IMG/VR virus record: IMGVR_UViG_3300022602_000036
Location: 85,160-149,159 of that record
Strand: one strand, 5' to 3'
Length of the DNA: 64,000 nucleotides
Origin: a virus
In this document: piece by piece, positions 6,939-11,358 of the stretch
Position numbering within the stretch: the stretch's first letter is position 1
Layout of the letters: every line of letters begins with the position of its first letter
Program-made: the position numbers and the translations under genes
The notes under the pieces: generated by a model
Seen by the model: the letters and a program-made list of their open reading frames with translations, nothing else
The model's database searches: none
Told to the model about the DNA's origin: nothing

Positions 6939-7433
6939 ATGAACCAAGAATTAATTAATATGGCATTTACTCGTAATCAACTTAGTAAGACTATGACGTT
7001 AAATGAAGCATTTTTTCTTTTTCATAAGGAGAATCTTTTAAACGTAGGAGAATTAACTGAACGTGCTATTGTAAAACAAGGCAAATTAACACAGCATTCA
7101 AAAAACTTTAAAGGTAGTGATTTTAAAGAAGACAACAGCGATAGTAAATATGTTCAGGTTCGCTATTATTCTACAGCTTATGCTACTATTGCCGGAATTC
7201 AAAATAAAATAGGAACATTGCGGGTTTTGTGTTTTGAACCTAAACAAAATAAAAATTATTATTTCTTAATTCCTTACAAAGTGTATGCTCCTTACACTTC
7301 AGCCAATGATTCATTAAAAATCTATTTTGATATGGAAGGCAATCCTAGAAGTCCTAAACGGTCGAATCGTCGATACGATTTATGGGATTATGTATGTACT
7401 AAAAAAGAATGGTATAAAAAATTAGCAAAATGA
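6939..7433 (+). CDS. hypothetical protein, possible PD-(D/E)xK nuclease
   Basis: GELTE...GSD...SDSK spacing; AT-rich. Confidence 0.45.
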   Translation: MNQELINMAFTRNQLSKTMTLNEAFFLFHKENLLNVGELTERAIVKQGKLTQHSKNFKGSDFKEDNSDSKYVQVRYYSTAYATIAGIQNKIGTLRVLCFEPKQNKNYYFLIPYKVYAPYTSANDSLKIYFDMEGNPRSPKRSNRRYDLWDYVCTKKEWYKKLAK

Positions 7434-7615
7434 AAAAAATAATTGGATATATTCTAAGTTGGACATTATATTGGCTAGGTGACTTTACTAGTAAACCTAT
7501 GCACTACTTTGATTGGGGTTGGTTATATCCTGTGTATAATCATCTAATGATTTGGAGCACTGACGTACAAGATTGGTCAGGGTGTGATGGCCCGTGGGGA
7601 GAAGTCAATGGGTGA
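7430..7615 (+). CDS. Trp-rich small protein
   Basis: 61 aa, ATGA overlap. Confidence 0.6.
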   Translation: MKKIIGYILSWTLYWLGDFTSKPMHYFDWGWLYPVYNHLMIWSTDVQDWSGCDGPWGEVNG

Positions 7616-7892
7616 TGAAAGTCAATGGTATTGGAATGATTGGAAAGACTACCAATACGCAGTTAAAAAAGACCTTAACGTCGAGTATGAACTTTGGGAA
7701 AATACACCTAAAAATAACACTGTTATCTTTAATGCTGGCACAGATGACGAAATGCTTAAAATTACTCCTGATGGTTTTTATGTTCGTGGAGTAAAGGTAG
7801 AACAAGGCCCAGAGGAAGCAGAAGCAGTATACAAAGCGTTTAAAGAGTTTATGACTTGGGCTATTATCAGCAGGCCCGAAGAAGAGCAATAA
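7608..7892 (+). CDS. hypothetical protein
   Basis: ATG 7608 after GGGAG. Confidence 0.65.
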   Translation: MGDESQWYWNDWKDYQYAVKKDLNVEYELWENTPKNNTVIFNAGTDDEMLKITPDGFYVRGVKVEQGPEEAEAVYKAFKEFMTWAIISRPEEEQ

Positions 7893-7917
7893 ATAGTATA
7901 TTAAAGGAAAGGATCAA

Positions 7918-8133
7918 TTGGCAAAAGAAGACGTTATAAAACTATCAGGAACCGTAGAAGAAGTCTTAGGTAACAGTATGTTCCGTGTGAAATTAGAAAA
8001 CAATCACATTGTTACCGCATATATTGGAGGTAAACTCCGTATGCACACAATTAAGATTATCATGGGTGACGTAGTTGACGTTGAAATGACGCCATATGAT
8101 TTAACCAAAGCCCGTATTACTTACAGACGATAA
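7918..8133 (+). CDS. infA: translation initiation factor IF-1
   Basis: MAKEDVI...[17 protein letters not shown]...[29 protein letters not shown]; TTG start; ATAAATA at 7889. Confidence 0.97.
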
Positions 8134-8134
8134 G

Positions 8135-8236
8135 CGTCCAGCACCAATTTACCTTTAAGCCACATTGGCTGTGCTGTGCAAAAACAAGGAAAGTTCACAA
8201 CTAGGGGTCCTTGGTAGCCTTGTTGACGACTGGACA
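8135..8236 (-). ncRNA. candidate ~100-nt structured ncRNA
   Basis: 5'/3' ends pair over 13 bp with G-U wobbles only on the minus strand; inner multibranch hairpins; ATAAATA 5 nt upstream. Confidence 0.55.
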
Positions 8237-8255
8237 TAGATATTTATGGAAAATT

Positions 8256-8801
8256 ATGTATAACTTTATTAAATGGACATTAAACGAAGGCAAGGAGCCT
8301 AAAACACTTACCCAAACTCCACTGCCTTATGATCGTGGTGCTCTAGGTAAAAGTCTAAGCAAGGCCACATTAGACTATCACTATGGTAGCCTATACAAAG
8401 GCTATGTTGATCGCTACAACAAGGGCGAAGGTGATGCAGACTTCAACGAAGCAGGCGCTTTCTTACATGACTTATACTTCACACAATTCCGTGCGCCAAA
8501 AAGCTCAAATCTACCCGTAGGTAAAAGTCTAGAGTTAATCAATGAACATTTTACAAGTTTTGATAAATTCAAAGAAGCTTTTGAAAAAGAAGCTATGAAG
8601 ATACAGGGTTCAGGGTGGATCTATCTTTCATACCGTGGCGAGATTAAAACAATTAAAAATCACGAAGTTAGACGAGATATCGCACTGTTAGTTGACTGGT
8701 GGGAGCATGCATGGGCTCTTGACTATAAAGCAGATAAAAAAGGCTACTTAACTAATCAATGGAAAATCATTGATTGGGACATTATTAATCAAAGGATCTA
8801 A
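8256..8801 (+). CDS. sod: Fe/Mn superoxide dismutase
   Basis: LPYDRGAL, DYHY, FLHDLYF, QGSGW, DWWEHAW: all four metal ligands present; ATG 8256. Confidence 0.93.
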   Translation: MYNFIKWTLNEGKEPKTLTQTPLPYDRGALGKSLSKATLDYHYGSLYKGYVDRYNKGEGDADFNEAGAFLHDLYFTQFRAPKSSNLPVGKSLELINEHFTSFDKFKEAFEKEAMKIQGSGWIYLSYRGEIKTIKNHEVRRDIALLVDWWEHAWALDYKADKKGYLTNQWKIIDWDIINQRI

Positions 8802-9560
8802 ATGCGAACTCCTCTTGTACTAGTTGGTACACGATACAACATCTTACCTTTATTAGAAATAGCTGAAGCAACTAATTACGAAGTAATTGGAATTTTAGAT
8901 CGTTTTTATGTAGGACAGAAATTTGAAGGTATAGATGTTATAGGATCTGATCTAGATCTACTAGACAAAGAAAATCAAACCATACAGGATCTTATTAGCA
9001 CAGCTGAATTTTTTGTCTGTACCTATTTTCCAGGTTATACCAATACCGATAATCCCAACGAAAACACATTCTTATTAAGATTGCAACGCATTGATTTAGT
9101 TAAGCGTGCTGGATGTCAGTTGGCGAATCTAATACACCCCAAAGCAGATATCAGCAAATATGCCACTGTTGGTAAAAATACGCTAGCACTGTTAAACTCG
9201 TATGTTGAGCCTAGATCCACCGTTGAGGATTTTTGTACCCTTATGCAAGGAGTTGGTATTGGGCACAACAGTATTGTAGGGGAAAATTGTTCATTCTCTG
9301 GTGATGGTGGAGTCGCAGGCAGTGTGACCATGGGCAAAAATGTCTACGTAGGTGTTAACGTTCGTATATTAAATACCATGGAAAAGAATGTCACAGTAGG
9401 TGACAATGTTATTATTGGCCCAGGACTAATAATTATGAAAGACATACCTGCAGATACTATTGTGTATCCAAATGGTAAAATGGTTCCTAACTGTGATTTT
9501 GATCCAAAAAAATACGAAGGGAACGGAATATTCCCTTCGTACCAGCGACTAACTTCTTAA
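8802..9560 (+). CDS. NeuD/PglD-like sugar acetyltransferase (left-handed beta-helix)
   Basis: Rossmann-like N-terminus, NLIHPKA, hexapeptide repeats IGHNSIVGENC. Confidence 0.85.
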   Translation: MRTPLVLVGTRYNILPLLEIAEATNYEVIGILDRFYVGQKFEGIDVIGSDLDLLDKENQTIQDLISTAEFFVCTYFPGYTNTDNPNENTFLLRLQRIDLVKRAGCQLANLIHPKADISKYATVGKNTLALLNSYVEPRSTVEDFCTLMQGVGIGHNSIVGENCSFSGDGGVAGSVTMGKNVYVGVNVRILNTMEKNVTVGDNVIIGPGLIIMKDIPADTIVYPNGKMVPNCDFDPKKYEGNGIFPSYQRLTS

Positions 9561-10609: not shown

Positions 10610-10644
10610 AAATTTTCCTCAAATAAATTTTAATTAGATTTTAT

Positions 10645-10752
10645 TGCTAGTGAGAAATCACACACGGAAGGCGTTCTAATTTAACAAATTAGTAAAAGGA
10701 TTATTATCCCAGGCGTCTTAGTTTTCCGACGTCGATGAATATCGGCGCTGCA
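10645..10752 (-). ncRNA. candidate structured 5' leader / riboswitch-like RNA of the TauD-like gene
   Basis: five short helices incl. CGGAA/UUCCG closing a junction; ATAAATA immediately upstream. Confidence 0.5.
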
Positions 10753-10755
10753 TAA

Positions 10756-11358
10756 TTATTTATGTTGTTTATAAACGCCAGCTAAATTATACATAGGTTC
10801 TGTGCCTAAGTTAAGCATAGCATAGTCATGTACACCTTCGTTTAGGCAATATGCATGACCCATTTTAGGTTCAAAGTATCCGCGGTTCTCAACAGCAAAA
10901 TACCTTTCAGCAACATAATTCAAAGGAATCCAAAATATATTAAATCCTGCATTGATAGAATCTGTAGGCATGTGATATCTATCTTCAATCCTGGTGTGAT
11001 TGTCAAAGAATCCCAAAGGATTCATTTTAATAATGCGTAGCCCCAGGGGAGTAATACCTAATTTTTCAATTGTTTCTTTAAAAATTACAGTACTACTATC
11101 CCACTCAACAGTACAGGGATCTTGGTCAAAACTAAAACTACCATTATGTGAATAAATTAATTTATACTCCATATTACCAATGCTGTTTTCTTTAGGACGA
11201 GTAAATACTGATAACTCAATAGTCTGACAGAGTTGATATAACATACTGGTTGTATCAGCATCAATGTCTGCTATAGGGCGCATGAAATCATTTTCAACTA
11301 ATGATTGATCTATTTCAGATAGCTTAGAAAAGAAATTATAAGTAGCAAGGCTAGGCAT
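10756..11358 (-). CDS. degenerate cupin / Asp-Asn beta-hydroxylase-like protein
   Basis: RIIKMNPLG, IFWIPLN, GHAYCLN, MLNLGTEP spacing; canonical HxD absent. Confidence 0.55.
   Translation of the reverse strand: MPSLATYNFFSKLSEIDQSLVENDFMRPIADIDADTTSMLYQLCQTIELSVFTRPKENSIGNMEYKLIYSHNGSFSFDQDPCTVEWDSSTVIFKETIEKLGITPLGLRIIKMNPLGFFDNHTRIEDRYHMPTDSINAGFNIFWIPLNYVAERYFAVENRGYFEPKMGHAYCLNEGVHDYAMLNLGTEPMYNLAGVYKQHK

What the first reader, a model, noticed from the sequence alone, without database searches (positions are those of the whole stretch)
8135..8247. Unannotated ~100-nt structured RNA antisense between infA and sod
Seen on the minus strand: ATAAATA (8241-8247), then UGUCCAG-U-CGUCAA pairing with the 3' end UUGGUG-CUGGACG (13 bp, one bulge). 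Inside, a UACC/GGUA stem closes a junction with hairpins CAAGGA..AGUU-GUG-AACU..UCCUUG, UGC-ACA-GCA and AGCCA-AUG-UGGCU. Three G-U pairs in the terminal stem become A-C mismatches on the + strand, which favours the minus strand and matches the promoter. It ends 2 nt from the infA stop. Inference: a late small RNA with a long stem and cloverleaf-like head, reminiscent of Y-RNA/tRNA-mimic architecture or a protein decoy.
Basis: partly seen in the sequence, partly recalled or inferred. Interest (0 to 1): 0.75.

Follow-up and report, generated by a model that had tools for sequence, protein, structure and literature searches.

The report
New structured small RNA beside phage sod
Between infA and sod this giant freshwater phage carries a gene for a roughly 105-base non-coding RNA with a conserved fold locked by two pairing loops; it matches no catalogued RNA family, recurs in at least 73 related phage sequences, and its function is unknown.

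Summary
Window 8136-8235 (minus strand) encodes a conserved structured RNA that starts just after an ATAAATA promoter-type box (8241-8247). I collected 73 distinct homologues from viral and lake metagenome contigs, one copy per genome. They show compensatory changes in seven helices: 92% of cells paired, 24 of 33 pairs changed on both sides, 0 of 500 shuffles as good. G-U outnumbers A-C by 103 to 2 in four helices, which fixes the minus strand. The supported fold is a 7-bp terminal stem and two three-way junctions. A 6-bp loop-loop helix links a tiny hairpin to hairpin b, and a conserved GGAY/YAAA internal loop sits between the junctions. No reading frame is conserved. There is no Rfam match and no tRNA call. 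The phage records hold no Ro60 or RtcB gene, and a strict pattern found no copy in bacterial genomes. The RNA nearly always sits at the start of sod, in four different promoter arrangements. It is mostly its own transcription unit. Function is unknown. My best inference is a folded, partner-binding regulatory RNA tied to sod expression. It is a new RNA family.

The parts
8241..8247 (-). ATAAATA promoter-type box (core TAAATA = complement of 8241-8246). It lies 5 nt upstream of the first base of P1.
   Evidence: Sequence. A TAAATA box lies 4-5 nt before P1 in 69 of 73 homologues (2-8 nt in all). TAAATA is enriched upstream of genes in the window: 25 of 86 genes against about 3 expected, peaking 25-40 nt before starts.
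8136..8235 (-). The structured RNA from P1 to P1 (100 nt). The predicted 5' end is at about 8235-8237. The 3' end is not defined.
   Evidence: The covariance model hits 8133-8238(-) at 108 bits, E 4e-29, the only hit in the window and in the 149-kb record. Covariation.
8229..8235 (-). P1 5' strand GUCCAGU. It pairs with 8136-8142 (GCUGGAC).
   Evidence: All 7 pairs show changes on both sides; 98.4% of cells paired. Coordinates.
8215..8228 (-). Mini-hairpin Pc: a 2-pair stem (8228:8215 is a C-A mismatch in this copy; 8227:8217 is G-C) around a 9-nt loop UCAACAAGG. ACAAGG (8223-8218) is the 5' strand of the loop-loop helix.
   Evidence: Pairs 11:24 and 12:22 covary (G-U, U-G, G-C, U-A, A-U; G-C/A-U); 96.6% paired.
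8184..8189 (-). CCUUGU in the loop of hairpin b. It is the 3' strand of the 6-bp loop-loop (pseudoknot) helix with 8218-8223.
   Evidence: 99.3% paired. Three of 6 pairs changed on both sides (C-G/U-A 49/21; A-U/U-A 49/17; G-C/A-U).
8211..8214 (-). Helix a 5' strand CCAA. It pairs with UUGG 8144-8147.
   Evidence: 100% paired. The middle pair is A-U in 42, G-C in 27 and G-U in 4 sequences, with 14 state changes on the sod tree.
8204..8210 (-). Internal-loop strand GGAC (8210-8207) plus a2 5' strand CCC (8206-8204). Opposite lie UAAA (8151-8148) and AGG (8154-8152).
   Evidence: GGAY/YAAA is invariant or nearly so. Pair 35:135 covaries as G-C, U-G, U-A and C.A.
8173..8201 (-). Hairpin b: GUUGUG (8201-8196) pairs with CACAGC (8178-8173), around a 17-nt loop.
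   Evidence: 46 distinct helix sequences among 73 RNAs, each with a 4-8 bp hairpin around the conserved UUUCCC loop. All 6 aligned pairs changed on both sides. The alignment register is imperfect (73% paired).
8158..8170 (-). Hairpin AGCCA-AUG-UGGCU.
   Evidence: 93% paired; 4 of 5 pairs changed on both sides. One subfamily has a longer hairpin here instead.
7918..8133 (+). infA (IF-1), convergent with the RNA. It is an incidental neighbour.
   Evidence: Pfam eIF-1a, E 7.6e-24. It is the neighbour in only 6 of 73 loci.
8247..8801 (+). sod (Fe/Mn superoxide dismutase), the constant neighbour. Its ATG lies 20 nt from P1, and its first base is also the last base of the RNA's ATAAATA box.
   Evidence: Pfam Sod_Fe_C 1.1e-22 and Sod_Fe_N 2.2e-7. 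sod was recovered next to the RNA in 56 of 73 loci, and several of the others are cut short.
8110..8128 (-). Weak terminator-like hairpin plus UUUGGUU, 8 nt after the RNA and inside the infA coding sequence. It is a possible 3' end.
   Evidence: Consensus scan: 1 found against 0.6 expected. On its own this is not significant.

Best explanation
Shown: window 8136-8235 (minus strand) is a gene for a non-coding RNA of about 105 nt. The fold has a 7-bp stem joining the two ends. A first three-way junction carries a tiny hairpin (Pc). Helix a follows, then a conserved GGAY/YAAA internal loop and a 3-bp helix a2. A second three-way junction carries hairpins b and hp. A 6-bp helix between the loops of Pc and b ties the two junctions together.

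Strongly inferred: it is transcribed from its own TAAATA-type promoter box, with the start at or within 1-2 nt of the first base of P1. In most genomes it is an independent transcription unit.

Inferred, about 30-35% sure: it works through its folded shape, binding a protein, ion or small molecule, and not merely as an antisense strand. Its most likely target is expression of the adjacent sod(-erpA) unit. In about two thirds of the loci, including this window, the sod mRNA must be transcribed through the RNA gene in antisense, against the RNA's promoter. Transcription of the RNA and pairing with the sod leader would therefore lower or reshape sod expression.
For: Homologues: 73 distinct sequences from IMG/VR and lake metagenome contigs. 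There is one copy per genome, including a CheckV-complete 354-kb genome.

Structure: 92.1% of cells paired, 24 of 33 pairs changed on both sides, 0 of 500 shuffles as good, and 29-47% paired when partners are slid. Pair states change many times on a tree built from the neighbouring sod protein, for example 14, 13 and 11 times.

Strand: G-U to A-C is 103:2 in P1, Pc, the kissing helix and helix a.

Promoter: a TAAATA box lies 4-5 nt before P1 in 69 of 73. The box is 8-fold enriched upstream of genes in the window. In three loci the box and the RNA are inverted together relative to sod.

Non-coding: no frame is open in more than 26 of 73, and lengths differ by non-multiples of 3.

Independent unit: the downstream same-sense gene has its own TAAATA box in 37 loci. 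There is no same-sense downstream gene in about 27 loci, including the window.

Link to sod: sod starts 11-27 nt from P1 in nearly all loci, despite at least 10 changes of promoter architecture and varied outer neighbours (infA, nrdA, UvdE, a small 'PYKVE' protein gene). In 36 type-B and 8 or more type-C loci, the only sod-sense promoter lies beyond the RNA gene.
Against: There are no expression data. The transcript, its ends and its 'late' timing are inferred from sequence only. In 18 type-A loci the sod promoter lies between the RNA and sod, so there is no antisense overlap, yet the RNA is equally conserved. One 93%-complete genome has the RNA but no sod. So sod control cannot be the whole function. 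An antisense role would not need such a conserved tertiary fold. No partner protein or ligand is identified. The 3' end is undefined: a U-run follows P1 in only about half the loci. The alignment of hairpin b is imperfect (73% paired). Relatedness of the sequences inflates cell counts, although the tree counts argue for many independent events.
Confidence: 0.75

Rival explanations
1. It is a cis-acting 5' leader, such as a riboswitch, protein-binding operator or 5' stabiliser, for the gene that follows it in the RNA's own direction. That gene is the small 'PYKVE' protein gene in most genomes and sod in the inverted ones. Copies like the window's would then be orphans.
For: A same-sense gene starts 20-75 nt after the RNA in 37 loci. 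In about 6 loci (L004, L029, L068, L091, L166, L173) no promoter box intervenes, and in 5 of them the ribosome-binding site comes 6-12 nt after P1. In 3 inverted loci the sod ATG is 8-9 nt after P1. The conserved junction nucleotides and the long-range loop-loop helix are typical of aptamers. RNAalifold offers an alternative 3-pair extension of P1 that excludes helix a (12-14:144-146).
Against: In 37 loci the downstream gene has its own TAAATA box. In about 27 loci, including the window, the RNA runs into the end of a convergent gene, yet it scores as well (108 bits) as the others. No conserved expression platform exists. The alternative pairing shows no covariation and is contradicted at 12:22 and 27:143. 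No known riboswitch class matches.
Confidence: 0.12
2. It is a self-cleaving ribozyme or RNA-processing signal that defines transcript ends, for example by releasing a near-leaderless sod mRNA in the inverted loci.
For: It is a compact pseudoknotted fold with invariant unpaired nucleotides. Self-cleaving ribozymes are common in phage genomes (general knowledge). In the inverted loci the sod ATG follows P1 by 8-9 nt with no Shine-Dalgarno sequence. In RNA-free relatives sod sits 5-6 nt after its TAAATA box, an apparently leaderless layout.
Against: There is no match to any Rfam ribozyme family. No cleavage site can be proposed from sequence. Most copies have nothing downstream to process.
Confidence: 0.07
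3. The functional strand is the plus (sod-sense) strand: a structured 5' UTR or intercistronic element of the sod mRNA, possibly with a small upstream ORF.
For: In type B and C loci the sod mRNA must contain this sequence. In 24 of 36 type-B loci an ATG lies 2-5 nt (usually 5) after the sod-sense box and opens an ORF, 32-43 codons in all but one, across the element.
Against: G-U to A-C of 103:2 means the helices would carry A-C mismatches on the plus strand. The box and element invert as one unit. In 18 loci the sod promoter lies downstream of the element. The uORF is absent in 12 of 36 type-B loci and uses different frames with unrelated peptides. No frame is open in more than 26 of 73.
Confidence: 0.03
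4. It is a Y-RNA-like or tRNA-like mimic that acts as a decoy for a host protein.
For: The ends are paired in a 7-bp stem, as in a tRNA acceptor stem. A loop-loop contact holds the fold. The phage also carries translation-related genes such as infA.
Against: ARAGORN finds nothing. No Y RNA, YrlA or tRNA-like Rfam family matches. There is no four-way junction. Five phage records hold no TROVE/Ro60 or RtcB gene. There is no conserved 3' tail.
Confidence: 0.03

Closest known systems
Orphan structured ncRNA motifs found by comparative genomics in phages and metagenomes (Weinberg/Breaker-type motifs in Rfam, e.g. GP20-b)
   Same: It was found as a conserved intergenic element with covarying helices. 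It is restricted to uncultivated phages and its biochemical role is unknown.
   Different: It matches none of the 4227 Rfam 15 families at E up to 10, in the window or in 16 homologues. It has its own promoter box and is mostly not a leader of a fixed gene.
phi29 packaging RNA (pRNA)
   Same: It is a phage RNA of about 100-120 nt. The 5' and 3' ends form the closing helix, there is a three-way junction, and two loops are Watson-Crick complementary and covary. In pRNA that loop pairing turned out to be intermolecular.
   Different: There is no sequence or Rfam match. This RNA has two junctions and a 6-bp loop pairing that can close within one molecule. The host phages are T4-like in their replication genes, and such phages are not known to need a packaging RNA. 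The phi29 RNA is made from an early promoter (general knowledge).
Cis-antisense RNAs and face-to-face promoter pairs; RyhB control of sodB in E. coli
   Same: In 44 or more of 73 loci the RNA is fully complementary to the leader of the sod mRNA and its promoter faces the sod promoter. Control of a superoxide dismutase mRNA by a small RNA has a precedent (RyhB-sodB, general knowledge).
   Different: RyhB acts in trans by short pairing with Hfq. Here the pairing would be in cis over about 100 nt, it is absent in 18 loci, and the RNA has an elaborate conserved tertiary fold that antisense action does not need.
Riboswitch aptamers built on three-way junctions with a long-range loop contact (e.g. 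purine and THF-I classes)
   Same: A P1 stem closes the domain. Junction and internal-loop nucleotides are nearly invariant. A distal loop-loop or loop-bulge helix pins parallel helices together.
   Different: There is no match to any known class, no conserved expression platform and no constant downstream gene. The ligand is unknown.

Membership tests
Any Rfam 15 family (riboswitches, ribozymes, sRNAs, Y RNA, pRNA, tRNA-like) | Covariance-model match to the element | tested here: not met
   cmscan at E up to 10 on window 7000-9500 and on 16 homologous loci gave no hit overlapping the element.
tRNA / tmRNA | Cloverleaf or tmRNA features recognised by ARAGORN | tested here: not met
   0 genes in the whole window. 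The fold has two three-way junctions, not a four-way junction.
Y RNA / YrlA (Ro60 RNP) | A Ro60 (TROVE) gene, often with RtcB, in the same genome | tested here: not met
   PF05731 and PF01139 are absent from 5 phage records that carry the RNA, while the positive controls matched. The host genome is unknown, so a host Ro60 is not excluded.
Y RNA / YrlA (Ro60 RNP) | Long terminal stem with the conserved Ro-binding helix and bulge | tested here: not met
The covariation-supported terminal stem is only 7 bp.
Protein-coding small ORF (38 aa, 8121-8237 minus) | The reading frame and start codon are conserved in homologues | tested here: not met
   Minus-sense frames are open in only 6-8 of 73. Lengths vary among 99, 100, 101, 102, 103, 107, 111 and 112 nt. 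Of the homologues inspected, only the window copy has the ATG.
Cis-antisense RNA of sod | The target mRNA overlaps the RNA gene on the opposite strand | tested here: inconclusive
   The position of promoter boxes implies overlap in 36 type-B and 8 or more type-C loci, but not in 18 type-A loci. There are no transcript data.
Riboswitch (generic) | An aptamer followed by an expression platform controlling a constant downstream gene | tested here: not met
   The downstream gene has its own promoter box in 37 loci and is absent in about 27. No conserved alternative pairing exists.
phi29-type pRNA | Intermolecular loop-loop pairing that builds a ring on the packaging motor | not testable with these tools
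   Loop complementarity with covariation is present. Whether it forms within or between molecules cannot be told from sequence.
T4-type late transcription unit | A TATAAATA-like -10 box about 6 nt before the start, recognised by a gp55-type late sigma factor | tested here: inconclusive
   The TAAATA core is enriched upstream of genes and is fixed 4-5 nt before P1. The full TATAAATA is not enriched. The late sigma factor gene was not searched for.

The most novel reading that the evidence does not exclude
This is the founding member of a new class of aptamer-like phage RNAs. It would be a stand-alone, late-made sensor or partner-binding RNA, for a metal ion, a redox signal or a protein. It would tune the phage's oxidative/UV-stress gene block, since sod with an ErpA-like Fe-S gene lies on one side, UvdE on the other, and Dps next to it in a sod-less genome. 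Alternatively its two complementary loops pair between molecules to build a multimeric RNA assembly, as in phi29 pRNA.
Probability: 0.2. Interest if true: 0.85.

Novelty: categorically new. Interest (0 to 1): 0.68.

Why it matters
Giant phages are known for protein novelties, but few conserved structured RNAs of their own are described. This one has covariation support as strong as that of accepted RNA families, a compact fold closed by a loop-loop helix, its own promoter and a strict single-copy position beside a phage superoxide dismutase. It gives a concrete and cheap experimental target of 100 nt. One can test for ligand binding, self-cleavage, multimerisation or control of sod. It is also a new family that could be added to RNA databases, so that the same intergenic gap in hundreds of lake phage contigs gets annotated. 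The novelty rating refers to the RNA family and its fold. Whether the function is new is unknown.

Tried and rejected
- **Single-sequence folding:** not significant on either strand, so it gives no evidence either way.
- **Known families:** Rfam and ARAGORN found nothing.
- **blastn against cultured phage genomes:** only infA matched, in an Acinetobacter phage. No cultured phage carries the RNA at that sensitivity.
rejected by covariation.
- **Coding readings:** the 38-aa ORF and the sod-sense uORF are both rejected.
- **Plus-strand function:** rejected by the G-U/A-C bias.
- **Y-RNA partners:** TROVE and RtcB are absent.
- **Bacterial and archaeal genomes:** a strict pattern found 0 matches. 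Only one pattern was tried, so distant cellular relatives are not excluded.
- **TATAAATA as the promoter word:** not enriched. The shorter TAAATA is.
- **Pfam and PHROGs on the downstream 'PYKVE' protein:** no family. It was also not found in the window's own record, which is only 42% complete.
- **P1 plus U-run as an intrinsic terminator:** U-runs occur in only about half the loci and at variable distance, so this is left open.
- **MAFFT and first-model alignments of hairpin b:** out of register between subfamilies. I relied on per-sequence hairpin checks instead.
- **Literature:** three searches found no description of this RNA.

Full report
**What is at the coordinates.** The window is the last 64 kb of a 149-kb IMG/VR virus record, estimated 42% complete. 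It carries a T4-type family-B DNA polymerase, a DNA ligase and a Lon-like protease. infA (7918-8133, +) and sod (8247-8801, +) are confirmed by Pfam. The 113-nt gap between them holds the element. On its own the sequence does not fold better than shuffled versions: z is -0.93 on the minus strand and 0.02 on the plus strand. It also matches no Rfam family and no tRNA or tmRNA. The window alone would therefore not justify the claim.

**Homologues.** A search of viral contigs with the SOD protein gave 80 loci. In about a third of the distinct upstream regions the element lies directly upstream of sod at 71-82% identity, whatever lies beyond it. In L002 the outer neighbour is nrdA. In L003 infA abuts sod directly and the element is missing. 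Two degenerate patterns built from conserved blocks found 74 viral and 63 metagenome loci, and none in one-per-species bacterial and archaeal genomes. A covariance model (R1) finds exactly one copy per locus. It also finds one copy in the window's own record and one in each of four large phage records of 259-355 kb, one of them CheckV-complete. In total there are 73 distinct RNA sequences.

**Structure.** Coordinates below are window minus-strand positions.
- P1 is 7 bp: GUCCAGU 8235-8229 pairs with GCUGGAC 8142-8136.
- The next two nucleotides pair with 8217-8215 to form a minimal stem, Pc, around a 9-nt loop.
- Six loop nucleotides, ACAAGG 8223-8218, pair with CCUUGU 8189-8184 in the 17-nt loop of hairpin b (8201-8196 with 8178-8173). 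This helix crosses the others, so it is a kissing-loop pseudoknot.
- Helix a, CCAA 8214-8211 with UUGG 8147-8144, follows Pc directly.
- Next come a nearly invariant 4x4 internal loop (GGAC opposite UAAA) and a 3-bp helix a2.
- A second three-way junction carries hairpin b and the hairpin AGCCA-AUG-UGGCU (8170-8158).

On the 73-sequence alignment, 92.1% of cells are standard pairs and 24 of 33 pairs show changes on both sides. No shuffle out of 500 reaches any of the five measures, and sliding the partners by 1-3 columns drops pairing to 29-47% (earlier versions). Mutual information independently recovered 11:24, 12:22 and 35:135. Hairpin b has 46 different helix sequences around the same loop. 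On a tree of the neighbouring SOD protein the pair states switch repeatedly, for example 27:143 14 times, 17:58 13 times and 18:57 11 times. The signal is therefore not one inherited change. RNAalifold independently predicts P1, the loop-loop helix and the small hairpin. Its alternative 3-pair extension of P1 has no covariation and is contradicted at 12:22 and 27:143.

**Strand and coding.** In P1, Pc, the kissing helix and helix a there are 103 G-U cells against 2 A-C cells when read on the window's minus strand (first estimate 41:8). The plus strand would carry the mismatches. No reading frame is conserved. Minus-sense frames are open in 6-8 of 73 sequences and the best plus-sense frame in 26 of 73, and lengths differ by non-multiples of three.

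**Promoter and transcription unit.** A TAAATA box lies 4-5 nt upstream of P1 in 69 of 73 sequences and 2-8 nt in all. In the window it is ATAAATA at 8247-8241. TAAATA is strongly enriched 25-40 nt before start codons in this window, with 25 of 86 genes against about 3 expected. The full T4 word TATAAATA is not enriched. By analogy with T4 late promoters (established knowledge), transcription would start at or next to the first base of P1.

In three loci the box and the RNA are inverted together, so that the RNA directly precedes sod. This supports the box and the RNA being one unit.

Downstream of the RNA, 37 loci have a small gene for a 'PYKVE' protein with no Pfam or PHROG family. That gene has its own TAAATA box. 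About 6 loci have the gene with no box in between, and in 5 of these it follows immediately. In about 27 loci, including the window, the RNA runs into the end of a convergent gene. The RNA is therefore mostly an independent unit. Its 3' end is unclear. A U-run follows in about half the loci at variable distance. In the window only a weak terminator-like hairpin is present (8128-8110).

**Link to sod.** The sod start lies 11-27 nt from P1 in nearly all loci, and four architectures occur.
- Type A, 18 loci: back-to-back boxes sit between the RNA and sod.
- Type B, 36 loci: the sod-sense box lies beyond the RNA, so the sod mRNA must carry the RNA's antisense as a leader of about 140 nt, and the two promoters face each other.
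- Type C, 8 or more loci, including the window: sod has no box of its own and must be read from the upstream plus-strand gene through the element.
- Type D, 3 loci: inverted, so that the RNA is the sod leader.

The architecture changed at least 10 times on the sod tree while the adjacency persisted. The wider neighbourhood is a stress-protection block: UvdE in 41 loci, an ErpA-like Fe-S protein after sod in 18, and a ferritin/Dps gene next to the RNA in one genome. That 93%-complete genome has the RNA but no sod, so sod cannot be the only reason for the RNA.

**Interpretation.** The gene, strand, fold and promoter association are well supported. The mechanism is inference. The invariant junction and internal-loop nucleotides and the loop-loop lock point to an RNA that acts through its shape, by binding a protein or small ligand. 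Its fixed place at the head of sod points to sod expression as the likeliest target, through transcriptional interference and pairing with the sod leader in types B and C. Rival readings are scored in their own sections: a cis leader or riboswitch, a ribozyme or processing signal, a plus-strand UTR element, and a Y-RNA or tRNA mimic. The Y-RNA idea fails its testable features: no Rfam match, no TROVE or RtcB gene, and a short stem.

**Novelty.** No Rfam 15 family matches, blastn of the infA-to-sod stretch against cultured phage genomes matched only infA, three literature searches found nothing, and this scan recorded no look-alike in any other genome. The same stretch had been flagged independently in an overlapping window of the same genome. 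I rate it a new RNA family with a new fold and unknown function.

Noticed in passing
L012, L019, L021 and about 30 other loci, the 20 nt before the sod ATG: In relatives without the RNA, sod sits only 5-6 nt after its TAAATA box (e.g. GATAAATATCATTATG). This suggests a leaderless or nearly leaderless sod mRNA. The divergent gene uses a back-to-back TATTTA box 2-6 nt away.
   Followed up: partly
L017:2477-2818(-), L004:2659-2844(-) and 35 other loci: A family of small proteins (60-130 aa) sits downstream of the RNA. Each has either an N-terminal membrane helix or an MLHHIKKLFG-type start, followed by a conserved (A/V)PYKVE(T) motif and an Ala/Pro/Val/Thr-rich tail. There is no Pfam or PHROG match.
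   Followed up: partly
L003:2784-3010: This closest relative with the same upstream genes has the infA stop codon abutting the sod ATG, with neither RNA nor promoter box. The 113-nt unit is therefore either inserted in the window's lineage or deleted there.
   Followed up: partly
L090, L121, L128 (type D): The promoter box plus RNA is inverted as a cassette, so that the sod ATG follows the 3' strand of P1 by 8-9 nt with no Shine-Dalgarno sequence.
   Followed up: partly
Type-B loci, e.g. L017 and L089, sod-sense strand just beyond the RNA's 3' end: In 24 of 36 type-B loci an ATG lies 2-5 nt (usually 5) after the sod-sense TAAATA box and opens an ORF across the antisense of the RNA. In all but one (L061, 6 codons) it is 32-43 codons long and stops 14-27 nt before sod or overlaps its start by 8 nt. 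The frames and peptides differ between subfamilies.
   Followed up: partly
L115 1281-2390 (record G003, 331 kb): This genome has the most divergent RNA copy and no sod. The RNA is flanked by a ferritin/Dps-like gene plus a 64-aa basic protein on one side and a 100-aa protein on the other.
   Followed up: partly
window 10610-10763 (minus strand): Another first-stage note reports a long multi-hairpin leader after a TAAATA box upstream of a TauD-like gene. My covariance model does not match there, so it is not a paralogue of this RNA.
   Followed up: no
window 7890-7917: infA itself has a CAATAAATAGTA box 28 nt before its TTG start, so infA and sod are probably read from a TAAATA-type promoter as well.
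   Followed up: no
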